From Candidatus Heimdallarchaeum endolithica (GTDB lineage: Archaea > Asgardarchaeota > Heimdallarchaeia > Heimdallarchaeales > Heimdallarchaeaceae), in the NCBI GenBank assembly GCA_021513715.1, contig CP084167.1, forward strand, positions 608,001-672,000: 64,000 bases of DNA, read 5' to 3'. The notes beneath the pieces were generated by a model, which saw nothing but the letters and a program-made list of their open reading frames with translations, was not told where the DNA came from and ran no database searches. This document shows positions 212 through 13,259 of the stretch, piece after piece. Every line of letters starts with the position of its first letter. The stretch's first letter is position 1. The position numbers and the translations under genes were made by a program.

Positions 212-622
212 ATGCAAGAGTCTGCACTTTTTCGATATTTTGACCAATTAGAAAGAACTGACTTGCTATTTATCAATTTCGCATTTCTGATTATTATAAT
301 TCCAGGACTAATTTTTGGATTGTTAAGTAAAAGCTCATGGATGCTTTATGTAGCTTTGGTCGTACTTTTTTTCTTTGTTTGTTGGAATTGTCTTTATTTC
401 TATACCAAATTCAAACTAAACAAACAAGAAAAAGAACTTCTTAAAACTATTCCCAGTTTTCCACAACTCGACTTCTGTGATTATTGTGGTAAATCATTAG
501 AAGATTCAGCTCCTGCAGTGATTGATAGTAATCTAATCATTGTATGCCCTCATTGTGGAAAAGAAAATATAGTTAAATCAGAGGAAGAAATTGAACAGAT
601 AAATGAAAAAGCAGATTCATAA
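212..622 (+). CDS. Small membrane protein with C-terminal zinc ribbon (first gene of the rSAM operon)
   Basis: Two hydrophobic helices followed by CDYC...CPHC. ATG at 212 preferred over the track TTG at 101. Ends 18 bp before the next gene. Confidence 0.65.
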   Translation: MQESALFRYFDQLERTDLLFINFAFLIIIIPGLIFGLLSKSSWMLYVALVVLFFFVCWNCLYFYTKFKLNKQEKELLKTIPSFPQLDFCDYCGKSLEDSAPAVIDSNLIIVCPHCGKENIVKSEEEIEQINEKADS

Positions 623-640
623 TTTAAGGAGATATAACAA

Positions 641-2329
641 ATGAAAAAAAAAGCAAAAATACTTTTCTTATTAATTATTTTCTCAAATTTACTTTTTGTT
701 TTAACAACAAATACAAACAACATTAATGCTTTGAAAGAGCCTATTAATAGTAATTCTAGTGAATTTAGGGCATATAGTTTCGCTGTTCCTTATATGTATA
801 CTGATGTTACTATTAAAAAAGATGGCTCAATAGATATTTCTTATACCATTAATTTTACAAATTTTATTTTTGGAGACACTATCGACATTGTTGACATAGG
901 CTTTCCTAATAAACATTACAAGCTTAGAAGTGTTCAAGCTTGGATAGATGGTTATGAGATTACTGACATTAGAAAAAGTGAGTACATTAGTATAGGAGTA
1001 GAGATACATTTAGGTAGTCATTCTATTTTACCTGGTGAGAGCGCAATATTGGAAGTTAAAGGAAATAATCCTAAAATGGTCTTTAAAGATGATACAAAAG
1101 AGAATTTTGCTAGTTGTGTTTTTAGGCAAACTTGGTTTAGTTCGCAATTTGCTTTTGGAGAAACAGAAAGAAGAGTAAGATTTTATTTTCCTGAAGACTT
1201 AACTAATATAAGTGAAGTAGAGAAAAGAGTGTCAGATTATAGTGTTGATTTCTCAAGAGCAAGTAATTATGTAGAGTTTTCCAAATCAAGCACTCCTTTT
1301 GATAATGACTTTTATGTGGGTGTAGGAATACCTTCAAAATATGTTGATAGAATGTATAGCGAATTTTGGGTTTACCATTTTGGTGAACTTGTTGCTCAAG
1401 TATTATTCTTCTTAATGTTCTTTGGTTTCTTTGCTTTTTTCTGCTATGGTTTTTGTATTTTACCAATAAAAGAACAAAAGAGATACCTTCCGCCTACAAT
1501 AAAATCCACTGGTGGAGCTGTGAGAATGGGGTTAAAACCCTCTGAAGCAGCTATTATACTAGAAAAACCACTTACTCTTGTTGCTTCTTTAGTTATTTAT
1601 GAAATGATGTCTGAAGGATTGATCTCTGTCAAGCAGAAGGATCCATTAAGATTTAAGGTAGAAATTTCTTCCAAAGAGAAATCTAACTTACCTACTTATC
1701 AGAAACATATAATAAATGGAATAAAAAAGAGAGAAAAATCTGATCTAAAATGGGAAAGAGGAAGTGTTTCTGGTGCTCGCCCTCATGATCCTTTTGACCA
1801 AGATTATATCAGAAAAGCTCTCTTATCTTTAATAAAAGAAACTACCAAGAAAATGAAAGGATTCAACCTGAAGAAAACAAAGAAATACTATAATGAATTA
1901 ATTGAAAGAGCTTGGATAGATATGAAAGAAGAACGCCCAGAACTAGAAAACGCTTTTCTATGGATAATGATTGATGAAGACTATGATGATAGAATGAAGG
2001 AATATTACGATGATTATTACTACCCTTCATGGTATGTTTATCACTATCACACACACTATTATGGCAGAAATAGAGGAGGTTTAGAAAAAGTAGAGGGTAA
2101 ATCAGGATTCAAAAGAACAAAAATTAAAGATAGAGGAAAAATAATTCCTGGACTAGATTTCAAGCGAATACAGAAAAATATAGTAAGAAGTCCCAAAAAA
2201 CTGCTCTCTTCTGTAAAATCTAAAACTAGACCTATATCTAGGAGTTCAGGTAGAAGTGGAGGAGGGGGCGGAGGAGGTTGTGCTTGCGCTTGCGCTTGTG
2301 CTTGTGCTTGCGCTGGAGGAGGACGATAA
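641..2329 (+). CDS. Membrane protein (DUF2207-like layout) with a Gly-rich linker and C-terminal (CA)6GGGR tail; putative rSAM substrate
   Basis: AAGGAG RBS, signal peptide, extracellular beta-rich domain, central TM, cytoplasmic domain ending GGGGGGGCACACACACACAGGGR. Confidence 0.85.
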   Translation: MKKKAKILFLLIIFSNLLFVLTTNTNNINALKEPINSNSSEFRAYSFAVPYMYTDVTIKKDGSIDISYTINFTNFIFGDTIDIVDIGFPNKHYKLRSVQAWIDGYEITDIRKSEYISIGVEIHLGSHSILPGESAILEVKGNNPKMVFKDDTKENFASCVFRQTWFSSQFAFGETERRVRFYFPEDLTNISEVEKRVSDYSVDFSRASNYVEFSKSSTPFDNDFYVGVGIPSKYVDRMYSEFWVYHFGELVAQVLFFLMFFGFFAFFCYGFCILPIKEQKRYLPPTIKSTGGAVRMGLKPSEAAIILEKPLTLVASLVIYEMMSEGLISVKQKDPLRFKVEISSKEKSNLPTYQKHIINGIKKREKSDLKWERGSVSGARPHDPFDQDYIRKALLSLIKETTKKMKGFNLKKTKKYYNELIERAWIDMKEERPELENAFLWIMIDEDYDDRMKEYYDDYYYPSWYVYHYHTHYYGRNRGGLEKVEGKSGFKRTKIKDRGKIIPGLDFKRIQKNIVRSPKKLLSSVKSKTRPISRSSGRSGGGGGGGCACACACACACAGGGR

Positions 2330-2330
2330 A

Positions 2331-3644
2331 ATGTCAAAAGAAGAACAGAAAAAGATGTTTCATCTAAGAAACGAAGAAACCTTTACTAGGATGCATTTAA
2401 GAAAAGAAAAGAAAGGACAAGGAATATTGATTGTTAATGCTAATAGAATTTTTCATCTAAACAAAACAGCTACTGAATTCATTGAATATATAATAAAAGA
2501 GATGAAAGATGAAGAGATAATAAGAAAAATGGTCAATAAATACAATGTCCACGAATCAGAAATAAGGACAGATCTGATGAATCTAAAAATAGCAATAGAA
2601 GATATTGTTAATAAACCAGATATCGACCCTGTTCAAGAATTATTTGACGAAGACATGGAAATAGAGAGAATGATTTTTTCTGCCCCATTAAGAATGGACT
2701 TGGCTATAACCTACAAATGTAATAACAAATGTGTTAAATGTTATGTTGAAAAAAAAAGAGAAATAAAAGAATTAAAAACAGAAGAATGGAAAAAAGTCTT
2801 AGATAAATTGTGGGATATTGGAGTCCCACATGTAACATTTACAGGAGGAGAACCTACAACAAGAAAAGATTTGGTAAAATTAGTAGAGTATGCAGAAGAT
2901 ATAGGTATAGTAACAGGATTAATAACTAATGGAAGAAATCTGAAAGACAAAAATCTGGTAGATGAACTTGTAGCAGCAGGAATAGACCATTTCCAAATAA
3001 CGATCGAAAGCCACTTGCCAGAAGTACATGATAAATTAACGGGAGTAAAAGGCTCGTGGGAAGAAACAGTAGAAGGAATAAAAAATGTTGTACCCACACC
3101 AGTATTTATCATGACAAACACAACTCTAGTCCCAGAAAATATTAATGAAATAGATAAAACAATAGAATTCCTAGCTTCTCTAGGTATAGATCACTTTGCA
3201 GCAAACGGAATAATAAAAGCTGGAGGAGGAAAAAATGACTCACTAGACTTAACAGTAGAAGAACTAAACAAAACCCTAGATACAATCATGAAGAAAGCAG
3301 AAGAAATGAAAATGAGATTCCTATGGTACTCACCAACAAGATATTGTGAATTTAATCCAGTAAAAAAAGGACTAGGAGTAAAACAATGTACAGCAGCTAA
3401 CATAGCTATGGCAATAGAGCCAGATGGACAAGTAATACCATGCCAAAGCTACTTTGATACACTAGGAAACATATTGACCACACCATGGAAAAAAATATGG
3501 AACCATAAAACAGCAAAAAGAATAAGAAAAAGAAAATACTTACCCCAAGAATGTAAAAAATGCCCAGAAAAAGAAATATGTGGAGGAGGATGCCCTCTAA
3601 ATTATGAAGCGCCATCAACAGTCTGTAGAGATGCTCTATCTTAA
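2331..3644 (+). CDS. Radical SAM/SPASM protein with N-terminal PqqD-like RiPP recognition element
   Basis: CNNKCVKC (CxxxCxxC), GGEP, SPASM cysteines (CTAA..IEPDGQVIPC..CKKC..CGGGCP), PqqD-like HLNKTATEF..EEIIRKM..KYNV. ATG at 2331 with GGAGGAGG upstream; the track start at 2256 overlaps the previous gene. Confidence 0.92.
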   Translation: MSKEEQKKMFHLRNEETFTRMHLRKEKKGQGILIVNANRIFHLNKTATEFIEYIIKEMKDEEIIRKMVNKYNVHESEIRTDLMNLKIAIEDIVNKPDIDPVQELFDEDMEIERMIFSAPLRMDLAITYKCNNKCVKCYVEKKREIKELKTEEWKKVLDKLWDIGVPHVTFTGGEPTTRKDLVKLVEYAEDIGIVTGLITNGRNLKDKNLVDELVAAGIDHFQITIESHLPEVHDKLTGVKGSWEETVEGIKNVVPTPVFIMTNTTLVPENINEIDKTIEFLASLGIDHFAANGIIKAGGGKNDSLDLTVEELNKTLDTIMKKAEEMKMRFLWYSPTRYCEFNPVKKGLGVKQCTAANIAMAIEPDGQVIPCQSYFDTLGNILTTPWKKIWNHKTAKRIRKRKYLPQECKKCPEKEICGGGCPLNYEAPSTVCRDALS

Positions 3645-3844: not shown

Positions 3845-6800
3845 ATGAGTAAATTGTCCAACAAAAAAATAGAGATTATAATCTTAATTTTTCTTCTTAT
3901 TACAATTAAAATCTACCAAGTAGAGCAAATAAAAATCAATAATCAATTTGATGAAGAAAAAAAAGATAATAATAGGAAACATTATACCACAATACATCAT
4001 TCTATTGAAATTACTTCAGATGACAATTTTTCTTCATTTCCTGGTTCTGGTACTAAAGATGACCCATATATTATAAAAGACTATATTATTTATTCATCTT
4101 CCAAATATGGGATATATATTTTTAATACCACAAAATATTTTATTGTACAAAATTGTAAAGTAAAATCTTCATATCTTAGTGGTCTTTATATATCTCATAT
4201 TAAAAATGGAACAGGAAAAATACTAGACAATGAATTCAACAGCGATAATTATGGAATATATGTTGACTCTTCAAATAATCTCTCAATTATTAATAACATC
4301 TATTTAGCTAAATATGGAATATATATGCATAGTTCAGCAAATAATTATATAGCCAAAAATGAATTTTACTCTTTATTTAAAGGAATCAACATTATATATT
4401 CCAATAACATAACAATAGAAAACAATACTTATTTTGAAAGCACACAAATTTCCATACGTCTACTTTATTCTAGTAATAATACAATAATAAATAACACTTT
4501 TACAAAAGTAAAAAAAGCTATTTATATTTATTATTCATTTAACAATTTTCTAACAGGTAATAATTTTACTAATAATGAAGTTGCAATTAATCTCATTTAT
4601 TCTGATAAGAATTTTATCTTTAATAATTCCTTTCAACTTAGTGAAATTAATTCAATAAATTTGGAATCTTCATTAAATAATTCAATAATAAACAATTCAT
4701 GTTTTTATTGTGATAACAATTCTATTTATCTAATTAACTCAGAATATAATTTAATATCAAACAATAGTTGTTACAATTGTAATAGCGCTATTTATCTTCA
4801 TAATTCTAGTTACAATCTACTAGAACACAATAGATTGATAAATAATTTGAAATATGGACTTCTTTTAATATCTTCAAATAACAATGATGTTAAAACTAAT
4901 ATTATAGTAAAAAATTCTTTTTATGGAATAAATCTATTATATTCAAAAAATAATACTATTTGGTTAAATTATATAGTATTTAACAATGTTGCAGTATCAA
5001 ATTCAGTTCAAGTTAACGATAATAATGGATTAAATTATTGGTATGAACCCATAATTAAAAAAGGGAACTATTGGAATGAATTCACTTATGGAAAAAATTA
5101 TTCAATCAACCCAGGACTTACGTCAGACTTATACCCACAAAATTCTACAGATACAGATGATGATGGCTTACAAGATGTAATTGAAATAAACTGTTTCTTT
5201 ACAAACATATTTAGCAATGATACAGACAGTGATGGAATAATAGATTATTGGGAAATTGATAATAATTTTAATCCATTAATTAATGATTCCTCACTTGACC
5301 TAGATAGAGATAATTTATCTAACTTGGCAGAGTATCAAAATAATACAGACCCTCATGATCCAGATACAGATGATGATGATTTAAGAGATGGAGACGAAGT
5401 TAACATTTATCTTACTGATCCTCTTGACTCTGATACTGACGATGATGGTATGCCTGATGGTTGGGAAGTAGAAAATTGTTTAAATCCTCTAGAAAATGAT
5501 AGTTACAATGATCCTGATGATGATAGTTTAGTAAATCTAGAAGAATATAACTATTCAACAAACCCAACTAATAATGACACTGATGGAGATGGTTTATCAG
5601 ACTATAACGAGATATATAGTTATAATAGTGACCCCACAGATATAGACACAGATAATGATGGTTTGTTTGATGGACAAGAAGTTAATTTGTTTTTAACTAA
5701 CCCTTTGGATTCTGACACTGATAATGACAAAATAGATGATTATTCTGAAGTATATTCGTTTTTTACTGACCCAAACTGTAATGACACTGATAATGATGGT
5801 TTGCTTGATGGTCAAGAAGCATATATCTTCTTTTCAGATCCAAATAGTAATGATACAGACCTTGATGGCTTATCAGATTATGAAGAAATAATTTATAATA
5901 CTAATCTAAAAAATAGCGATACAGACTTCGACGGACTTTCAGATTATGAAGAAATAAAAGTTTATTTTACTAATCCAAGAAGTAAAGACACTGATAGAGA
6001 TGGAAGGTCTGATGGTTGGGAAATAGAAAATGGATATAATCCGCTAATGAAAAATGTTTTCTTTGTAAAGAAGAGTATCTTGATGATTCTATTTTATATT
6101 AACATTTCTTATTCTATTCTAATCTTTCTACTCTTGCTATATATTCTCACAATAAAAAAAATTCTAATACAATTTTTTCAATGGCAAGAAGAACATTATT
6201 TAGAATTAAATAAATTATTAATTCAATATGAAAAAGCTACAAAAATTGTTTTTCTTTCTGATTTTATAAAGGATTTAACACCAGTGATTAACCAAACTAA
6301 AGAAGAAGTAAAAAGTTACCCTAAATTAAGTTTAATAAAAAAGATAAATAATACGAAGCAAGCCTATAAACTTTGGAAAAAGAAAATAGACATAAATAAA
6401 TATGAAAAAATGTACAATGATTTTTATTTTAGTGTTACACAATTAAATTTTTCTGAAATCAAGATAATCGATAATAATAATGATATAAGTGTTGAAAATG
6501 AGAAATTTGATACACTCTTAAAAGAAATAATAAATGAAAGAAGAATGTTAAAACAATATAAAAATCTAATAACTGACATGAAGTTTATTTTTTCATTTTT
6601 ACCTCGTTTTTTGGATGAGAACAAGAAGTTATTTTTTAAACAAATAAATGAAGAAATTGAAGAAAAGTTTGAAAATGCAAATTCTTTACTTATTAAAACT
6701 CTGAAATTATCAATAATTAAAGGAAATAAATTGTTAGAAAAAGAAGAACAATTGTCTAAACAAATAATTAAATCACTCTCAAAAGAAATTTTGCATCGTT

Positions 6801-7225
6801 TTGCTATTTATGAGAATGAATTGAAAGAATGGAAGAAAAGAAGTGAAAATGTCTTATCAGAATTATTGGAGGAAGATCTAAAAGAAGTGGAAGATTTGTT
6901 TCAAGAAGAGAAAAACATGCTCAAGGAGATAATAGTTCAGAATGAAATCAAATATAAAGAAGTGAAAAGAGTAAAAGTACTTATAGATGTATTATCAATT
7001 TATAGTGAAATCCCTTTAATTAAGCTACAACGGAAACTTGGTTTTTCAAAATTAGAAGATTTGGAGAAATGGTTAATAGAACTAAGTTCGTTTCTATCAA
7101 TAAAAATAGAAGGAGATAAACTAATTATCTCAGAGAAAGCTACAAAAGAATTAACACAATCAATAGATGAATTAATTAAGAGATTCACTGAATGGGAAAA
7201 AACAGGAGAAGGAAAAAAAACATAG
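3845..7225 (+). CDS. Receptor-like surface protein 1: beta-helix, TSP3-like DxDxDG repeats, TM, coiled coil, PCI-like winged helix (tail type A)
   Basis: FPGSGTKDDPYII motif, NosD-like parallel beta-helix repeats, GNYW, DTDxDG repeats, TM, C-terminus [23 protein letters not shown]. Confidence 0.85.
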   Translation: MSKLSNKKIEIIILIFLLITIKIYQVEQIKINNQFDEEKKDNNRKHYTTIHHSIEITSDDNFSSFPGSGTKDDPYIIKDYIIYSSSKYGIYIFNTTKYFIVQNCKVKSSYLSGLYISHIKNGTGKILDNEFNSDNYGIYVDSSNNLSIINNIYLAKYGIYMHSSANNYIAKNEFYSLFKGINIIYSNNITIENNTYFESTQISIRLLYSSNNTIINNTFTKVKKAIYIYYSFNNFLTGNNFTNNEVAINLIYSDKNFIFNNSFQLSEINSINLESSLNNSIINNSCFYCDNNSIYLINSEYNLISNNSCYNCNSAIYLHNSSYNLLEHNRLINNLKYGLLLISSNNNDVKTNIIVKNSFYGINLLYSKNNTIWLNYIVFNNVAVSNSVQVNDNNGLNYWYEPIIKKGNYWNEFTYGKNYSINPGLTSDLYPQNSTDTDDDGLQDVIEINCFFTNIFSNDTDSDGIIDYWEIDNNFNPLINDSSLDLDRDNLSNLAEYQNNTDPHDPDTDDDDLRDGDEVNIYLTDPLDSDTDDDGMPDGWEVENCLNPLENDSYNDPDDDSLVNLEEYNYSTNPTNNDTDGDGLSDYNEIYSYNSDPTDIDTDNDGLFDGQEVNLFLTNPLDSDTDNDKIDDYSEVYSFFTDPNCNDTDNDGLLDGQEAYIFFSDPNSNDTDLDGLSDYEEIIYNTNLKNSDTDFDGLSDYEEIKVYFTNPRSKDTDRDGRSDGWEIENGYNPLMKNVFFVKKSILMILFYINISYSILIFLLLLYILTIKKILIQFFQWQEEHYLELNKLLIQYEKATKIVFLSDFIKDLTPVINQTKEEVKSYPKLSLIKKINNTKQAYKLWKKKIDINKYEKMYNDFYFSVTQLNFSEIKIIDNNNDISVENEKFDTLLKEIINERRMLKQYKNLITDMKFIFSFLPRFLDENKKLFFKQINEEIEEKFENANSLLIKTLKLSIIKGNKLLEKEEQLSKQIIKSLSKEILHRFAIYENELKEWKKRSENVLSELLEEDLKEVEDLFQEEKNMLKEIIVQNEIKYKEVKRVKVLIDVLSIYSEIPLIKLQRKLGFSKLEDLEKWLIELSSFLSIKIEGDKLIISEKATKELTQSIDELIKRFTEWEKTGEGKKT

Positions 7226-7261: not shown

Positions 7262-9820
7262 TTACTTCTTCTTTCCTTTTCCTGTACGTTCCCACTCACT
7301 AAATTGTTTGAGTAAATCGTCAATAGCTGTAGTCATATCTTCAGAAACCAATACGCCTTCAAATTGTAAATCGAAGATTACTTCTTCTCCTTCAATCCTA
7401 TTTGGTACATCTTTAGAATAAGCATACAACCACAATTTCATAACTTCTTTATCTTGGAAGCCCAACAAGGGAGAAAGTTTGTTCAAACTTATTTTGTTGT
7501 AAACAGAACTAATTTTCTTAAGCCTATCAAGTAGCATATTATTATGTTTATTAACTTTGATTATTTCAGCTAATTCAGAAAAAATATTGTTATAGTTTTT
7601 TAAGACTTCCTGGAATATAGCTAACTTTTCAGAAGCTAAATCATTAACTTTTGACCATAAAGGTTCAGAGGAAATTTGATTATCAAAAGGTGCAAGAGTT
7701 TCTTCTCTAAAAACAATAACGAGATCTAGGAAAGAAATTAATTTCTCATAACTTATTATTAAATGTTTAAACTTTTTTTCTGACCAATTATGTATTAATT
7801 TTGTTGATACTTTTTTAGTATATTCCTCTAAATTTGCAGGATTAATTAGATCAACTAAAGAAATCACTTCAGTTTGAAGTTCTGTGTTTACGAAAGTAAT
7901 TATTTCATTATAGAGCTTGTTAAATTGTTCTTTTTTATTCTTTACTATTCTTCTTGCATTAATCTGAATAAAAAGTAAATCTTCAAGGAATATTTTTAAC
8001 TTTTCAAAAAAGCTTCTTATTTCGTTTACTGAAGAAACAAATATTATTAATGACGAAATACCTGCAAAAGTTTCCTCGTAAAATTCAATTAACTTAGGTT
8101 TTAAATTAATTACTTTTTTCATTTTCTTCCTTATCTTTACTCTTTTTCTAATTTTATAAATTAACAATAGTAAAAGAATAATAAATAAAGTAAATACAAT
8201 AATATAACCTATTACAATTGAATTAAGGTATACATTCTTTCTTAAAGGATCTTTTCCATTTTCTATTTCCCAACTATCAGACCTTCCATCTCTATCAGTG
8301 TCTTTACTTCTTGGATTAGTAAGATAAATATTTATTTCTTCATAATCTGATAAACCATCATTATCAGTATCAGGGTCTAAAGGGTCAGTAAGGTAAATGA
8401 TAACTTCATCTCCATCTATTAAACCATCATCGTCAGAATCGGTGTTATTAGCAAAAGTGCCAAGATTAAACTCTTTAAGATTTGATAAACCATCACCATC
8501 AAGATCTTCATAAGCATCATCCGCTAGAGGGTTCAAATTACTACATACTTCCCAACCGTCAAGCATACCATCATTATCTGTGTCAGGGTCTAAAGGGTCA
8601 GTAAGGTAAATGATAACTTCGTCTCCATCTATTAAACCATCATCGTCAGTATCAGAATCCAAAGGGGAGGTATTGTTGGTATATTCTTCTAAATTAGTCA
8701 AATTGTCATTATCAGGGTCTAAAGCAGAGTCATCAGTAAGAGGATCTAAACCATTGTCTTCTTCCCATTTATCAGACATATTATCTTGGTCTAGGTCTAC
8801 ATGCATAGGATAAGGATCAAAATTATCAGCTGTACCATCAATTGCATATACTCCTGTTCCACTCCAATCATACCAATAGTTACCTGTTGTACCATAATAG
8901 AATCTATTGTCTATTCCGCAATCATATGCCTGAGAATTAGTAGCTTGATTATTTTTAATAAAGATATTTTTTACAATAGTATTATTAGAACTATCCTGAA
9001 GATAAACTCCATAGGAGCAACTATTTGTGACAATATTTGAAGTAAACGTATTATTTTTAGAATTTGAAGAAAGACAAAATATTCCATATCGATCGTTAAA
9101 TGAAATATTATTATAAATAAAAATATTATTTGAACTAAAAGAAAGCAGTATACCATCATAAATACTATTGGTTACATTATTGGAAGTAAAAGTATTACTA
9201 AAACTAGAAGAAAGAGATATACCACCAATACTGCTATTTATTATTGTGTTAGAAGCAAAAGTATTCCAAGAACTAGAAGAAAGAAAAAATCCATAGGAAC
9301 TACTGTTTGTTATTGTGTTAGAAATAAAAGTATTATTAAAACTAGAAGAAAGAAATATTCCTCTATTATAATTACTTATAGTATTATTCGTTACTATTAT
9401 GGTTCCACTTACAACAGAATCAATATAAATACCAGAAAATGTTGAAATCCTGCCACTAAGATAACAATCACGAATTATAATATATTTAGTTGTACTAGTT
9501 ATCTTAATACCATCAGCACTAGAGCTAGAAATAATGTAGTTTTTTATAATATAAGGGTCATCTTTAGTACCTGAACCAGGAAAAACTGTTAGATCACTGT
9601 CAGAAGTAATAGAAATAGGAGCATGAATGATATAAGAATTCTTCATATTATTATTCTTAATTTTATTAATTATTTGCAGTGATGAAAATACCTTAGTGTT
9701 TGTATGTACATTTACTTCATTTTTTTTGTGAATAGAATAAGAGATTGAAATGTTTAAACATATTATTAATATAAACAATAAACATTTACTCAAATTTTTT
9801 AGTTTTCCCATCTTATTCAT
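7262..9820 (-). CDS. Receptor-like surface protein 2 (tail type B)
   Basis: Same architecture. C-terminus [54 protein letters not shown]. Confidence 0.85.
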   Translation of the reverse strand: MNKMGKLKNLSKCLLFILIICLNISISYSIHKKNEVNVHTNTKVFSSLQIINKIKNNNMKNSYIIHAPISITSDSDLTVFPGSGTKDDPYIIKNYIISSSSADGIKITSTTKYIIIRDCYLSGRISTFSGIYIDSVVSGTIIVTNNTISNYNRGIFLSSSFNNTFISNTITNSSSYGFFLSSSSWNTFASNTIINSSIGGISLSSSFSNTFTSNNVTNSIYDGILLSFSSNNIFIYNNISFNDRYGIFCLSSNSKNNTFTSNIVTNSCSYGVYLQDSSNNTIVKNIFIKNNQATNSQAYDCGIDNRFYYGTTGNYWYDWSGTGVYAIDGTADNFDPYPMHVDLDQDNMSDKWEEDNGLDPLTDDSALDPDNDNLTNLEEYTNNTSPLDSDTDDDGLIDGDEVIIYLTDPLDPDTDNDGMLDGWEVCSNLNPLADDAYEDLDGDGLSNLKEFNLGTFANNTDSDDDGLIDGDEVIIYLTDPLDPDTDNDGLSDYEEINIYLTNPRSKDTDRDGRSDSWEIENGKDPLRKNVYLNSIVIGYIIVFTLFIILLLLLIYKIRKRVKIRKKMKKVINLKPKLIEFYEETFAGISSLIIFVSSVNEIRSFFEKLKIFLEDLLFIQINARRIVKNKKEQFNKLYNEIITFVNTELQTEVISLVDLINPANLEEYTKKVSTKLIHNWSEKKFKHLIISYEKLISFLDLVIVFREETLAPFDNQISSEPLWSKVNDLASEKLAIFQEVLKNYNNIFSELAEIIKVNKHNNMLLDRLKKISSVYNKISLNKLSPLLGFQDKEVMKLWLYAYSKDVPNRIEGEEVIFDLQFEGVLVSEDMTTAIDDLLKQFSEWERTGKGKKK

Positions 9821-10073: not shown

Positions 10074-13000
10074 TTATTTTTTCTTCCCCTTTCCTGTACG
10101 TTCCCACTCACTAAACTTGTCTATTAGTTCATCAATAGACTGAGTAATCTCTTCAGTGATTTTTTCAACAATAATTAATTTTTCTCCTTCAATTCGAATA
10201 GATAAAATAGAGCCAAGTTCAACCAACCATAATTCAAGATCATTAAGTTCTTCAAAACCTAGTTTTTCCTGCAAAGTAACTAAAGGTATTTCAGAACTAG
10301 TAGATAGAACCTTGAAGAATTCTTTAGCCCTCTTTATTTCAACCTCTCGAGAATCAAAATAATTCATTTTTTCTTCCACTTTTTCTTTTAATCCATAGTA
10401 TTGTTCTATTCGGTTGCTAGTCAACTTTTCTACTGTCTCTGTGTTCATAACCTTACTATAATTTTCTTTCCAGTTAGCTAATTTTTCTTCAAACTCTCTA
10501 AAATATAACTCACTTTCTGTTGTTTTTCCTTTTAGAGAATACACAAACAGATTATCTATTTCTTTTACTAGCTCTTCTCCTTTTTTATCCAATAATATTA
10601 AAGGATAAAGATGAATAAGGTCTAGAACTTCTTGTCTCTTATTTTCTATTTCTTGTGATTCCTCTAACAAATCTTTTTTTTCATCATTTGTTAATCTGTC
10701 AGAAATTACTTTAAGTTTAGATTGGAAAAAATCACGAAAAGCATCTGTTATCTCTGATAACTTTTTTACTTTCTCGAGGTTAAAATTAATGTTTAAGTCT
10801 TGTTGATTAATTATTTCTTTCTCTATTTCAAAAATTTTCTCAAAAGTTTTTTTCTGATGAATCTTCATTTGATTAATAAGAGCATTCAATTCTTCTTTTG
10901 AAAATGACTTGTCTACATCATTAGTTTCATTGATTTTGGAAGAAAGTAAATCATTTCTTATATCTATTTTTTCTATCTCTTCAATATAGGAAAAATACTC
11001 ATCACTTACTTTTTTGAATTCTAAGGTGATTTTGTTTATCTTACTAACATATTCATCTAAATCTATTTTTTGATAATTATTTTTTTGTACATAATTATTG
11101 ATTTTTTGTAAGTCTGAAAGTAAGAATTTTTTCCTTTTCAACACTTTTTCTATTAATAAAGTATATTCATCAGCTATTTTTTTCTTTAATAAACCTCTAT
11201 AATCTAACAACTGGCTAATAAAAATGTCAATTTCTTCTTTTACTTTATCTAATTCAATAGAATTTTTCTTTCCTATAATAATCCTAAATAATTTAAATTC
11301 AGATTGATAAAAAGCAATTATTTTATTAATATAATTAATATTTTTAACACTTTCTTGAAAATCCACAGTTGATAAAGGTTGAAGAAGATATTCATCTATT
11401 TTTTCCTTAAATTTTTCAAATTCCAAAAATTGATCTTGTAATTTATTCTTTAATTTTAAAAGTTTTTCACTCTGTTTTTTCTTAATTAGTAAAATAATTG
11501 TTATTATGCTTCCTATAACTAAAAAACTCAATAGACAAGAAAGCACAATTTTAATTTTTTTTGCTCGAGGATTGCTTAATTTGTTTAATGGATCACTTCC
11601 ATAAATGATTATTTCTTCATAGTCATTAAATTTATCATCATCTGTGTCATTTTTTGTTGGATCTGTGTGGTAGGCATATATTTCTTCATAATCTGTTAAA
11701 CCATCTCCATCAGTATCAGGATTCATGGGGTTAGTTAGAAAAGTTATAACTTCTTGATAATCTGTTAAACCATCATTATCTGAATCTTTTTTATAAGGAA
11801 GAGAATGGAAAACTTTTACTTCTTGATAATAACCTAATTTGTCATCATCAAAATCTTCTTCTCTTATACATCCCCCAAAAGTAACTTCGTCTCCATCATT
11901 AAGGCCATCTCCATCAGTATCAGGATTAAGAGGATAAGCAAACCATTGATATTCTTCTAAATTAGTTAAACCATCTCCATCAGAATCTGCCTTGGGATCA
12001 TCCAAATTATAGACAATTTCCCAACCATCGTCCATTCCATCATTGTCATCATCATTCTCAACAGATACTATTCTTCTTGGAAAAATATCACCAATTTCAG
12101 CACCATATATAGAATAAAAATTGGTAGTACCATCCCAGTCTTCCCACAAATTACCAATCAGTAAAGTAGGAGAATACCAGAAGCTATTAGTTCCATAATC
12201 TTCGTTTAGATCCTTAATTTTCATAAAAGTATTATTGTAGACAATGTTGTATTCTCCTCTTTCACCTATTCTTACGCCCCCTAAACCTGTTCCACAAAAG
12301 AGATTATTATAAACCAAACTGTTACTTACTTCGAAAGCATAACAAATAGCGAAGTTAGTTGAATTGTATATTTTGTTATCATTAATAACAACGTTATTAC
12401 ATCTTTCTAAATTTATTCCATCAGTTGTTGCTCCTTTTATCAAATTATTAGAGAATACAATTTCATTATTGCCACTAGACCATATACCTGGAGCCCAATC
12501 ACTAGTTACATTTTCTAATGTGTTAAAAGTAATAGTAATCTCATTATTTGTATCAAGTCCAATGTTTCCTTCACCATTAAAAATGCATGTGTTTTTAGTA
12601 ACTGTAACATTAGATGATTCAGAAACCAAAATACCAAAACGAGAGTTATTAGCAGAATAATTATTATATACCAAGCTATCTCCTGTTTGGTGAATTAATA
12701 TTCCATCATAATTATAAAGAAGAGTACAATTCTCTACTATTGTACTCCCTGCTCTTGATTCAGAAGCAATCCCAAATCCAAAACCTTGAACAAAACAATT
12801 TCGAATAACTACTGAAGAACTAACATAACTAATAATAATACCACAACCTTCTTTGTTAGTTGCTTCTGTTGAAATCTTATAGTTTTCAATTATGTATGGA
12901 TCATCCTCTGTTCCTGAACCAGGACAACCAAGTTTTGCAAAGTCTTCTTCTCTAGTGATATCTATTGGTGAATGAATAATATAATTAGTCTTTTGGCTAT

Positions 13001-13259
13001 TATTTTTTTCAAAAATTATTTTTTGATAAGAACTATTATGATTTATTTGCCTATTGTTTAGAAATGAATTATGTTCATCAATTGAGAGAGAACTAACAAA
13101 TACTTTTTCAATTTCAGATTTATTGCTACTAAAATTAGAAAACTTGTCATAGTCATGACTATTTATTAAGTAAAAAGATGGAAGGACAAAAAGAAAAATA
13201 ATTAAAGAAAAAACAATATTTCTTCTGAAATTTAGCGATATATTGTTTAATATTTTCAT
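10074..13259 (-). CDS. Receptor-like surface protein 3 (tail type A), close paralogue of 25561-28752
   Basis: Same architecture; ends [23 protein letters not shown]. Confidence 0.85.
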   Translation of the reverse strand: MKILNNISLNFRRNIVFSLIIFLFVLPSFYLINSHDYDKFSNFSSNKSEIEKVFVSSLSIDEHNSFLNNRQINHNSSYQKIIFEKNNSQKTNYIIHSPIDITREEDFAKLGCPGSGTEDDPYIIENYKISTEATNKEGCGIIISYVSSSVVIRNCFVQGFGFGIASESRAGSTIVENCTLLYNYDGILIHQTGDSLVYNNYSANNSRFGILVSESSNVTVTKNTCIFNGEGNIGLDTNNEITITFNTLENVTSDWAPGIWSSGNNEIVFSNNLIKGATTDGINLERCNNVVINDNKIYNSTNFAICYAFEVSNSLVYNNLFCGTGLGGVRIGERGEYNIVYNNTFMKIKDLNEDYGTNSFWYSPTLLIGNLWEDWDGTTNFYSIYGAEIGDIFPRRIVSVENDDDNDGMDDGWEIVYNLDDPKADSDGDGLTNLEEYQWFAYPLNPDTDGDGLNDGDEVTFGGCIREEDFDDDKLGYYQEVKVFHSLPYKKDSDNDGLTDYQEVITFLTNPMNPDTDGDGLTDYEEIYAYHTDPTKNDTDDDKFNDYEEIIIYGSDPLNKLSNPRAKKIKIVLSCLLSFLVIGSIITIILLIKKKQSEKLLKLKNKLQDQFLEFEKFKEKIDEYLLQPLSTVDFQESVKNINYINKIIAFYQSEFKLFRIIIGKKNSIELDKVKEEIDIFISQLLDYRGLLKKKIADEYTLLIEKVLKRKKFLLSDLQKINNYVQKNNYQKIDLDEYVSKINKITLEFKKVSDEYFSYIEEIEKIDIRNDLLSSKINETNDVDKSFSKEELNALINQMKIHQKKTFEKIFEIEKEIINQQDLNINFNLEKVKKLSEITDAFRDFFQSKLKVISDRLTNDEKKDLLEESQEIENKRQEVLDLIHLYPLILLDKKGEELVKEIDNLFVYSLKGKTTESELYFREFEEKLANWKENYSKVMNTETVEKLTSNRIEQYYGLKEKVEEKMNYFDSREVEIKRAKEFFKVLSTSSEIPLVTLQEKLGFEELNDLELWLVELGSILSIRIEGEKLIIVEKITEEITQSIDELIDKFSEWERTGKGKKK

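What the first reader, a model, noticed from the sequence alone, without database searches (positions are those of the whole stretch)
641..3644. RiPP-type radical SAM maturase coupled to a full-size membrane protein with a (Cys-Ala)6 tail
Seen in sequence: the 562-aa membrane protein ends SSGRSGGGGGGG-CACACACACACA-GGGR. The Cys codons are mixed (TGT/TGC), which argues for protein-level selection rather than a pure microsatellite. The next ATG is 1 bp after the stop, and its GGAGGAGG RBS is encoded by the final Gly codons. That gene has an N-terminal PqqD-like RRE, CxxxCxxC and SPASM cysteines. I saw no small precursor ORF nearby. Established: RRE-rSAM-SPASM enzymes form Cys thioether crosslinks in sactipeptides and ranthipeptides. 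Inference: the substrate is the cytoplasmic tail of this membrane protein, giving a thioether-stapled or metal-binding tail or a released peptide. A zinc-ribbon membrane protein is a possible third component.
Basis: partly seen in the sequence, partly recalled or inferred. Interest (0 to 1): 0.88.

Follow-up and report, generated by a model that had tools for sequence, protein, structure and literature searches.

The report
Radical-SAM enzyme with Cys-Ala-tailed membrane protein
An Asgard-archaeal membrane protein ends in a nearly unchangeable cysteine-alanine repeat and is inherited together with a peptide-modifying radical-SAM enzyme in many archaea and anaerobic bacteria, so the enzyme most likely cross-links the tail of a whole membrane protein; I found no paper or curated family for this system.

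Summary
Observation confirmed. A 562-aa DUF2207-derived membrane protein ends in a cytoplasmic (Cys-Ala)6-Gly3-Arg tail, and an RRE-rSAM-SPASM gene starts 1 bp after its stop.

The tail is selected as protein: 119 DNA spellings in 120 loci. In 84 of 117 informative tail-selected loci the next gene is this enzyme family, and all 10 genomes checked without an active enzyme in view carry it elsewhere. Among 400 Asgard genomes, 119 of 126 with the membrane protein have the enzyme. Gly-tailed DUF2207 relatives lack both the cysteines and the enzyme. A (Cys-His-x-Ala)n variant and a short gut-Bacilli variant each keep a matching enzyme.

The six active-site residues (Y-T-I-T-Q-S) resemble the sactisynthases StsB and SkfB, not CteB or PqqE. 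Best reading: Cys-to-C-alpha thioether stapling of the tethered tail (0.6; chemistry untested). A predicted complex gave only weak support.

The closest precedent, CrpC/CrpA (2026), is a different family. This scan has reported the same system before in other genomes.

The parts
212..622 (+). Small membrane protein (136 aa from ATG 212; alternative TTG at 101) with two hydrophobic segments and a C-terminal CxxC...CPxC zinc ribbon; divergent ortholog of the cassette's usual first gene
   Evidence: Hydropathy and Cys positions; zinc-ribbon Pfam hits below cut-off; cassette profile 17.6 bits; its best phmmer hits in my loci that I could match are the cassette zinc-ribbon genes; the family is present in 58 of 68 loci with enough upstream DNA
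641..2329 (+). 562-aa DUF2207-derived membrane protein, the presumed substrate: N-terminal signal or anchor (aa 3-26), beta-sandwich ectodomain (about aa 45-240), one transmembrane helix (aa 246-277), cytoplasmic helical domain, disordered tail
   Evidence: DUF2207 likeness is weak by Pfam and clear by profile comparison with a true DUF2207 protein (hhalign probability 98.7, E 3e-16)
2279..2326 (+). (Cys-Ala)6-Gly3-Arg tail, residues 547-562, after a Ser/Gly/Arg linker; presumed core region
   Evidence: its last Cys-Ala columns are invariant in an alignment of 31% mean identity; free synonymous variation
2315..2322 (+). Shine-Dalgarno-like GGAGGAGG inside the last three Gly codons, 8 nt before the enzyme's ATG; translational coupling is inferred
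   Evidence: the Gly3-Arg motif is kept with any codons elsewhere, so the protein motif is not a by-product of the ribosome-binding site
2331..3644 (+). 437-aa RRE-radical SAM-SPASM enzyme, the presumed maturase
2385..2609 (+). RRE (PqqD-like) domain, about aa 19-93
   Evidence: Pfam PF05402 above cut-off; the family profile hits the lasso-peptide RRE TfuB1, PDB 6jx3, E 5e-5; three strands and three helices in the model
2718..2744 (+). CxxxCxxC motif (C130, C134, C137) followed by invariant Y138
   Evidence: Invariant in 67 of 67 family members
3345..3626 (+). SPASM region: C339 (64/67), C353, C371, C408, C411, C417, C421 (67/67), C432 (56/67); Q372-S373 follow C371

Best explanation
The operon encodes a protein-tail maturation system. 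The membrane protein sits with its ectodomain outside and its C-terminus in the cytoplasm (inferred from one transmembrane helix followed by basic residues). The soluble enzyme docks on the cytoplasmic part, probably through its RRE (inferred). It cleaves SAM at the CxxxCxxC cluster, abstracts a hydrogen from a backbone C-alpha of an Ala or Gly in the tail, and joins that carbon to a tail Cys thiol held at the first auxiliary cluster. Each event gives a Cys-to-C-alpha thioether (sactionine, minus 2 Da), repeated along the tail. Ala is the most likely acceptor, because both repeat types put Ala at Cys-1 and Cys+3. The rings would then be short (i-1 thiomorpholinone, or i to i+3); a hairpin onto the terminal glycines as in StsA is the alternative. 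The methyltransferase, where present, adds a later methyl group to the tail (weakly inferred). The product most likely stays on the protein as a rigid tag that replaces the plain Gly-rich tail of ordinary DUF2207 proteins. Shown here: anatomy, conservation, co-inheritance, residue profile. Not shown: binding, catalysis, connectivity, biological role. I put about 0.85 on the tail being the enzyme's substrate and about 0.6 on thioether chemistry.
For: Tail-selected loci: the enzyme family is the next gene in 84 of 117 informative loci and an active enzyme lies elsewhere in the locus in 9 more. All 10 tested genomes without an active enzyme in view have it elsewhere at E <= 3e-153. Enzyme-selected contigs: 6 of 8 show a tailed protein within 5 kb. 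Asgard survey: 119 of 126 genomes with the Cys-tail family have the enzyme; 119 of 138 with the enzyme have the protein, and 3 more have a Cys-His repeat within about 5 kb; 255 have neither. Natural control: DUF2207 proteins of families f7 and f28 end in Gly-only tails and these families have no enzyme match. Tail type follows enzyme clade. The pair survives loss of the cytoplasmic domain and reversal of gene order in gut Bacilli. Six catalytic-proximity positions (defined in PMC10288494): this enzyme Y138-T171-I198-T224-Q372-S373, five of them at least 95% conserved; StsB Y-T-I-S-K-L and CteB F-F-T-S-H-Q; SkfB Y-T-F-S-Q-L and PqqE S-S-I-S-H-A read from alignments. SkfB is the best PDB match by sequence and by fold. 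The gut enzymes keep Y-T-N-T-Q-S but only three Cys in the auxiliary region, which leaves room for a substrate thiol. Complex prediction, enzyme with residues 276-562: weak support, score 0.54 against a best control of 0.00, runs agree in at least 22% of contacts, partner pLDDT at least 69; at 0.60 or under that mark was reached by 7 of 80 solved complexes and by both mismatches that passed. Precedent for a protein substrate: CrpC/CrpA (PMC13692751).
Against: There is no biochemical evidence. The enzyme is below the cut-off of every NCBIfam maturase model checked, and the top scores are PqqE, NirJ2 and AhbD, which are not thioether enzymes. C339 gives most members an eighth SPASM Cys that could fill the first auxiliary cluster, as in anSME and MftC (ligation from my own knowledge, not tested). 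No RRE-binding leader was identified: the helix before the tail is shared with ordinary DUF2207 proteins. In Asgard family f12 the enzyme is in 19 of 19 genomes but the tailed protein was found in only 10, and five re-searched genomes (74-89% complete) gave nothing. Two of eight enzyme contigs show no tail nearby. Related genomes are not independent, and tree congruence is expected from joint inheritance alone. The profile comparison rests on four reference enzymes, and I did not compute the paper's score.
Confidence: 0.6

Rival explanations
1. The tail is the enzyme's substrate but the chemistry is not a thioether: for example Cys oxidation to thioaldehyde or formylglycine (anSME-like), C-alpha epimerisation of alternating residues, C-C coupling, or C-terminal decarboxylation followed by methylation.
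For: Eight SPASM Cys in most members fit fully ligated auxiliary clusters. The top NCBIfam scores are non-thioether enzymes. A methyltransferase stays next to the enzyme even where the membrane protein is elsewhere (f12), which hints at a two-step tailoring. Strict two-residue periodicity would suit alternating epimerisation.
Against: The residue profile matches sactisynthases. The gut branch lacks C339 and the second auxiliary cluster but keeps the same tail core. The gut tail continues past the Arg, which argues against chemistry at the C-terminal carboxylate. The conserved unit is Cys with Ala neighbours in two different repeat types.
Confidence: 0.2
2. The tail is not covalently modified. 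It is a metal, metalloid or Fe-S binding site (CxC, CxxC and Cys-His arrays) on a membrane sensor or scaffold, and the enzyme with the methyltransferase acts on a small molecule or cluster that the tail binds or delivers.
For: Tails contain CxC and CxxC motifs, and one branch adds a His after almost every Cys. A zinc-ribbon partner is common. About 50 of 120 loci carry a catalytically dead paralog of the enzyme that keeps the RRE, which shows that binding alone is selected in some lineages. From my own knowledge, radical SAM plus methyltransferase pairs act on arsenic in the ArsL/ArsS-ArsM systems.
Against: A fused RRE usually marks a polypeptide substrate (PMC10288494). The methyltransferase is far below the ArsM cut-offs. 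No metal transporter, reductase or metal regulator recurs among neighbours. A metal site would not obviously need near-invariant Ala between the Cys. A dead paralog can also be a second substrate-binding subunit.
Confidence: 0.15
3. The two genes are only co-regulated neighbours; the enzyme's real substrate is an unlinked small peptide or a cofactor (PQQ-, mycofactocin- or heme-type).
For: Some genomes have the enzyme without a detected tailed protein (f12; L187, L189). The enzyme is much more conserved than the membrane protein body.
Against: Co-occurrence persists when the genes are unlinked. Three tail types each have their own enzyme clade. No small precursor recurs. Gly-tailed DUF2207 relatives lack the enzyme.
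Confidence: 0.05

Closest known systems
CrpC/CrpA of Methanococcus voltae (TIGR04463; Dieter et al. 2026, PMC13692751)
   Same: Archaeal fused RRE-rSAM-SPASM enzyme next to a full-size protein with C-terminal Cys repeats; shown to install thioethers on a protein rather than a small peptide.
   Different: Different enzyme family (48.8 bits against a cut-off of 525). CrpA is a 29-kDa protein with an N-terminal leader-like domain and ten 17-residue repeats, and the links were assigned as ranthionines. Here the substrate is an integral membrane protein with a 16-residue tail and the enzyme profile is sactisynthase-like. At about 1.6% Cys this protein would not pass that paper's filter.
StsB/StsA of Streptomyces sparsogenes (NF045574; PMC10288494) and SkfB/SkfA of Bacillus subtilis (PDB 6efn, TIGR04403)
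   Same: Closest active-site profile (3 of 6 identical plus one Ser/Thr exchange for each). StsA has a CxCxC core followed by glycines. SkfB is the best structural match.
   Different: Both act on small precursor peptides. The enzyme scores 107 against 625 for StsB and 106 against 300 for SkfB. StsA has a four-residue loop and a GxGxG acceptor strand, which this tail lacks. No exporter or protease recurs here.
QhpD/QhpC of quinohemoprotein amine dehydrogenase
   Same: RRE-bearing radical SAM enzyme that installs thioethers on a protein subunit which stays in a functional complex (as summarised in PMC13692751).
   Different: QhpC is a small soluble subunit with Cys-Asp and Cys-Glu ranthionine links; the (Cys-Ala)n tail has no acidic acceptors. 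Family membership was not scored directly.
Enteropeptins (Enterococcus cecorum; PMC12395415)
   Same: Precedent for a sactionine between Cys and the residue just before it, giving a six-membered thiomorpholine ring, with N-methylation in the product; it fits an Ala-Cys dyad model.
   Different: Small peptide, one ring, acceptor is N-methylornithine. An analogy only; no homology was tested.
DUF2207 membrane proteins (Pfam PF09972 and PF20990)
   Same: Same overall plan: ectodomain, membrane span, cytoplasmic helical domain, Gly/Ser-rich tail; homologous up to the tail.
   Different: Below both Pfam cut-offs. True DUF2207 proteins in Asgard families f7 and f28 end in Gly only and have no such enzyme.

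Membership tests
RRE-dependent radical SAM/SPASM maturases (broad class) | CxxxCxxC radical SAM domain | tested here: met
   PF04055 E 1e-28; C130, C134, C137 invariant
RRE-dependent radical SAM/SPASM maturases (broad class) | SPASM or twitch auxiliary-cluster cysteines | tested here: met
   PF13186 45.5 bits; six invariant plus two mostly conserved Cys
RRE-dependent radical SAM/SPASM maturases (broad class) | RRE (PqqD-like) domain | tested here: met
   PF05402 above cut-off, TfuB1 hit, model topology
RRE-dependent radical SAM/SPASM maturases (broad class) | RRE binds a leader segment of the substrate | tested here: inconclusive
   Complex prediction weak (0.54 against best control 0.00, no interface given); no leader motif identified
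Sactipeptide systems (SkfB, StsB) | Small ribosomal precursor peptide in the cluster | tested here: not met
   No recurring small ORF; the Cys motif sits on a large membrane protein in 102 of 102 evaluable loci
Sactipeptide systems (SkfB, StsB) | Sactisynthase-type catalytic-proximity residues | tested here: met
   Y-T-I-T-Q-S against StsB Y-T-I-S-K-L and SkfB Y-T-F-S-Q-L; compared by eye, the paper's score was not computed
Sactipeptide systems (SkfB, StsB) | Score above the curated family cut-off | tested here: not met
   StsB 107/625, SkfB 106/300, AlbA 80/850
Sactipeptide systems (SkfB, StsB) | Cys-S to C-alpha thioether in the product | not testable with these tools
   Needs mass spectrometry and desulfurisation
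CrpC family (TIGR04463) | Score of 525 bits or more | tested here: not met
   48.8 bits
CrpC family (TIGR04463) | Adjacent large protein with C-terminal Cys repeats | tested here: met
   but membrane-bound and with a different repeat
Ranthipeptide maturases (CteB, PapB) | CteB-type proximity residues F-F-T-S-H-Q and family score | tested here: not met
   0 of 6 identical; PapB model 72.7/340
CXXX-repeat (TIGR04115), ACGX (TIGR04340) and His-Xaa-Ser (TIGR03977) systems | Enzyme score above cut-off | tested here: not met
   35/350, 73.8/400 and 89.1/267.9
PqqE, MftC, NirJ/AhbD cofactor enzymes | Enzyme score above cut-off and cognate pathway genes nearby | tested here: not met
   PqqE 151/381, MftC 104/265, AhbD 126/500; no such pathway genes recur in the loci
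DUF2207 (PF09972, PF20990) | Pfam gathering score | tested here: not met
   14.8 bits against 33 for the C-terminal model; at most 3 of 44 family members match at E <= 0.01
DUF2207 (PF09972, PF20990) | Shared architecture and detectable homology | tested here: met
   hhalign probability 98.7; Atlas feature hit to a DUF2207_C cluster 0.89; Atlas fold TM 0.47, under the 0.5 mark

The most novel reading that the evidence does not exclude
A widespread, undescribed post-translational modification in which a radical SAM enzyme converts the cytoplasmic tail of an intact integral membrane protein into a chain of short Ala-Cys thioether rings (for example consecutive thiomorpholinones), then methylated, serving as a covalent structural or signalling tag in Asgard archaea, Chloroflexota, Planctomycetota, Thermoplasmatota, Bathyarchaeia and gut Bacilli.
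Probability: 0.3. Interest if true: 0.88.

Novelty: new variant of a known kind. Interest (0 to 1): 0.72.

Why it matters
RiPP-type radical SAM chemistry on whole proteins has few proven cases (QhpC, and CrpA in 2026), and I found none on an integral membrane protein. This system is broad. It also shows how such a system can arise, by adding a Cys repeat to the Gly-rich tail of a DUF2207 protein, so it offers a way into the function of that uncharacterised family. It is directly testable: the substrate is a short soluble tail, the assays are standard, and a cultured carrier exists (Ornatilinea apprima P3M-1, locus L058, with all five genes).

Tried and rejected
Microsatellite or sequencing artefact: rejected (119 DNA spellings in 120 loci).

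Gly3-Arg as a by-product of the ribosome-binding site: rejected (codons vary freely; the motif is internal and gene order is reversed in gut Bacilli).

Free small precursors with the same tail: four short tail ORFs (L045, L050, L075, L087) are frameshifted ends of the membrane gene.

Membership in CrpC, StsB, SkfB, PapB, CXXX, ACGX, HxsC, PqqE, MftC, AhbD or ArsM families: all below cut-off.

Pre-tail helix as a dedicated leader: not supported, because it aligns with ordinary DUF2207.

Foldseek of the membrane protein against PDB gave only low-TM beta-sandwich matches (aminopeptidase N-terminal domains, an oligosaccharyltransferase subunit; TM about 0.24), which say nothing about function.

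Enzyme/substrate tree congruence (Mantel rho 0.81) is reported but given little weight.

RNA runs: no RNA holder was listed, which is no evidence either way.

Literature searches for the motif, DUF2207 with radical SAM, Cys-Ala repeat, and Heimdallarchaeum with radical SAM returned nothing; subscription journals are mostly not covered. The CteB structure paper was not held. The first adjacency count (61) had a coordinate fault and was replaced.
Full report
Source. The window is G000:C1:608001-672000 of a 3,326,783-bp single-contig genome of 31% GC. The nearest homologs are from Heimdallarchaeaceae. The same-genus genome G015 has the contig length of Ca. Heimdallarchaeum aukensis PM71. The genus has two named species, so this is probably Ca. 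H. endolithica (inference).

Observation. Three co-oriented genes follow each other: 212-622 (136 aa, two hydrophobic segments, zinc ribbon), 641-2329 (562 aa) and 2331-3644 (437 aa). The middle protein has an N-terminal hydrophobic segment, a confidently modelled beta-sandwich ectodomain, one membrane helix followed by basic residues, a helical domain and a disordered end. Its C-terminus should therefore face the cytoplasm (inference). It ends in Gly7-(Cys-Ala)6-Gly3-Arg. The third protein has PqqD, Radical_SAM and SPASM domains above Pfam cut-offs and belongs to no curated NCBIfam maturase family that I could score.

The tail is under protein-level selection. Of 104 homologs, most at 23-45% identity, 95 end in the same ten residues. 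In the alignment the last Cys-Ala columns are invariant against a mean column identity of 31%. A scan of species-representative genomes for DNA encoding those ten residues plus stop hit its limit at 120 loci, from Chloroflexota, Planctomycetota, Thermoplasmatota, Asgard archaea and several other lineages. These loci use 119 different DNA spellings. In 102 of 102 loci with enough upstream DNA the tail sits on this same membrane family, detected with a profile that omits the tail.

Tail and enzyme travel together. Among 117 informative tail-selected loci the next gene is an active family member in 78 and its N-terminus, cut by the locus end, in 6. An active member lies elsewhere in the locus in 9, 8 show only frameshifted or dead copies, and 16 show none in view. 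All ten genomes tested from the last two groups have the enzyme elsewhere. In the reverse direction, 6 of 8 enzyme contigs have a tailed protein within 5 kb, as do 7 of 7 evaluable metagenome loci. In 400 Asgard genomes I counted 119 with both, 7 with the membrane protein only, 19 with the enzyme only and 255 with neither; three of the 19 have a Cys-His repeat beside the enzyme. Kin are not independent, so I give no P value. The main exception is family f12: the enzyme, with its methyltransferase where I looked, is in 19 of 19 genomes, but the unlinked membrane gene was found in 10, often at contig ends, and not in five re-searched incomplete genomes.

A natural control. Eleven Asgard genomes gave only weak matches to the membrane profile. 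Four of the five re-examined show proteins ending in Ser/Gly only, two of them confirmed as DUF2207 above Pfam cut-off, and their families have no enzyme match. The family profile aligns with one of them up to the point where the tail begins (hhalign probability 98.7). The simplest history is that a DUF2207 lineage gained a Cys repeat in its Gly-rich tail together with the enzyme (inference; no rooted tree was built).

Variants. Most bacterial and several Asgard members have one Gly inside the repeat; Bathyarchaeia-type members have Cys-Val-Ser or Cys-Ala-Ser inserts. A large Asgard family (f31, probably Thorarchaeia) and others carry a (Cys-His-Ser/Asp-Ala)n tail with an enzyme from a distinct clade. 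Hybrids with both repeats exist (P0262, L177). Ala stands at Cys-1 in 84% and at Cys+3 in 72% of positions in the His type, and in 67% and 64% in the Ala type. Gut Bacilli (Erysipelotrichaceae, Anaeroplasma and others) have a 310-345-aa version that keeps the ectodomain, membrane helix and tail, drops the cytoplasmic domain, and extends the tail past the Arg by a conserved Ala-Gly-Cys segment. Its enzyme overlaps the start codon upstream in all three look-ups, is 33-38% identical to the window's enzyme, and has lost C339 and the second auxiliary cluster motif.

Other cassette genes. A class I methyltransferase is present in 43 of 65 loci with enough downstream DNA. Its ortholog in this genome lies at 673,503-674,285 (279 bits), 62 kb from the enzyme and just beyond the window; in G015 it is 48 kb away. 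It was not found with a single-protein query in two His-type genomes. The two-helix zinc-ribbon gene is present in 58 of 68 loci; the window's 212-622 gene is its divergent ortholog, and I did not detect it upstream in three other Asgard loci. About 50 loci, mostly Chloroflexota, carry a paralog of the enzyme that keeps the RRE but lacks CxxxCxxC. No protease, exporter or small precursor recurs.

What chemistry. The best PDB match of the enzyme by sequence and by fold is the sactisynthase SkfB, though only at about 21% identity. The catalytic site proximity paper (PMC10288494) defines six residues lining the active site that sort thioether enzymes better than overall identity. Here they are Y138, T171, I198, T224, Q372 and S373; five are conserved in at least 64 of 67 family members, and the gut enzymes read Y-T-N-T-Q-S. 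StsB has Y-T-I-S-K-L, SkfB Y-T-F-S-Q-L, the ranthisynthase CteB F-F-T-S-H-Q and PqqE S-S-I-S-H-A. This points to Cys-to-C-alpha links. StsA has a CxCxC core with Gly acceptors, enteropeptins show a ring between Cys and the preceding residue (PMC12395415), and CrpC shows that such an enzyme can process a whole protein (PMC13692751). Against this, C339 could saturate the first auxiliary cluster in most members, and no leader could be identified. The complex prediction gave weak support: 0.54 against a best control of 0.00, with 22% contact agreement, partner pLDDT 69 and no interface shown; the tool notes such passes are more often wrong than right unless the guess was likely beforehand.

Verdict. 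I estimate 0.85 that the tail is the enzyme's substrate and 0.6 that thioethers are formed, with non-thioether chemistry (0.2), an unmodified metal-binding tail (0.15) and mere neighbourhood (0.05) as rivals. It works like a sactipeptide or CrpC-type maturation but is a member of neither family. What is new is the substrate, the cytoplasmic tail of an integral DUF2207-derived membrane protein, and the enzyme family. Full-text searches found no description, with limited coverage of subscription journals. This scan has flagged the same system before in other genomes, in all three tail types. Those notes supplied the CrpC, StsB and CXXX leads, which I checked here, and are not counted as support. 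Interest 0.72; new variant of a known kind.

Noticed in passing
genome G000:C1:673503-674285 (+), about 1.5 kb beyond the right end of the window: Displaced ortholog of the cassette methyltransferase (261 aa, 279 bits); the H. aukensis copy is likewise 48 kb from the enzyme.
   Followed up: yes
window 3845-7225 (+), 7262-9820 (-), 10074-13259 (-), and further ORFs of about 1000 aa up to 32165: A run of large paralogous surface proteins directly after the enzyme: Asn-rich beta-helix-like repeats, Asp-rich calcium-binding-like repeats, one membrane helix and a shared C-terminal end. They occupy part of the interval that separates enzyme and methyltransferase. Only the first three were read.
   Followed up: no
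L058, L105, L040, L041 and about 50 loci; L069, L097, L110, L073, L108: A paralog of the enzyme lacking CxxxCxxC but keeping the RRE follows the active enzyme. In five loci it is the gene directly after the tail, with the active enzyme elsewhere. It may be a binding subunit or regulator.
   Followed up: partly
L055, L093, L105; genome G401 (L029 and L153): Two membrane proteins of this family in tandem or in one genome, so one enzyme may serve several substrates.
   Followed up: partly
L128, L198-L203; proteins P0376-P0495: Minimal two-gene version in gut Bacilli: shortened enzyme followed by a 310-345-aa membrane protein with a His/Tyr-rich linker, the Cys-Ala tail and a conserved extension containing one more Cys.
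   Followed up: yes
L130-L139, L176, L177; proteins P0234-P0336: (Cys-His-Ser/Asp-Ala)n tails on longer homologs. In family f31 the membrane gene and enzyme are divergently transcribed, often with a conserved gene of about 140 aa between them. The repeat also reads as overlapping CxxxCH motifs.
   Followed up: partly
L172-L175 (Asgard family f12): Enzyme and methyltransferase stay adjacent while the membrane gene is unlinked or not found.
   Followed up: partly
L150, L184, L188: In Bathyarchaeia-type loci the cassette follows an aldehyde:ferredoxin oxidoreductase, ThiS and a second, unrelated radical SAM/SPASM gene.
   Followed up: no
L005, L012, L016, L021, L031, L068, L087: A conserved protein of 113-114 aa that looks PAS-like by eye is inserted between the active and dead enzyme genes in some Anaerolineales.
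   Followed up: no
L122-L124, L128, L129: A second, different methyltransferase-like family (about 255 aa) lies near the cassette in both Heimdall and gut loci; may be coincidence.
   Followed up: no
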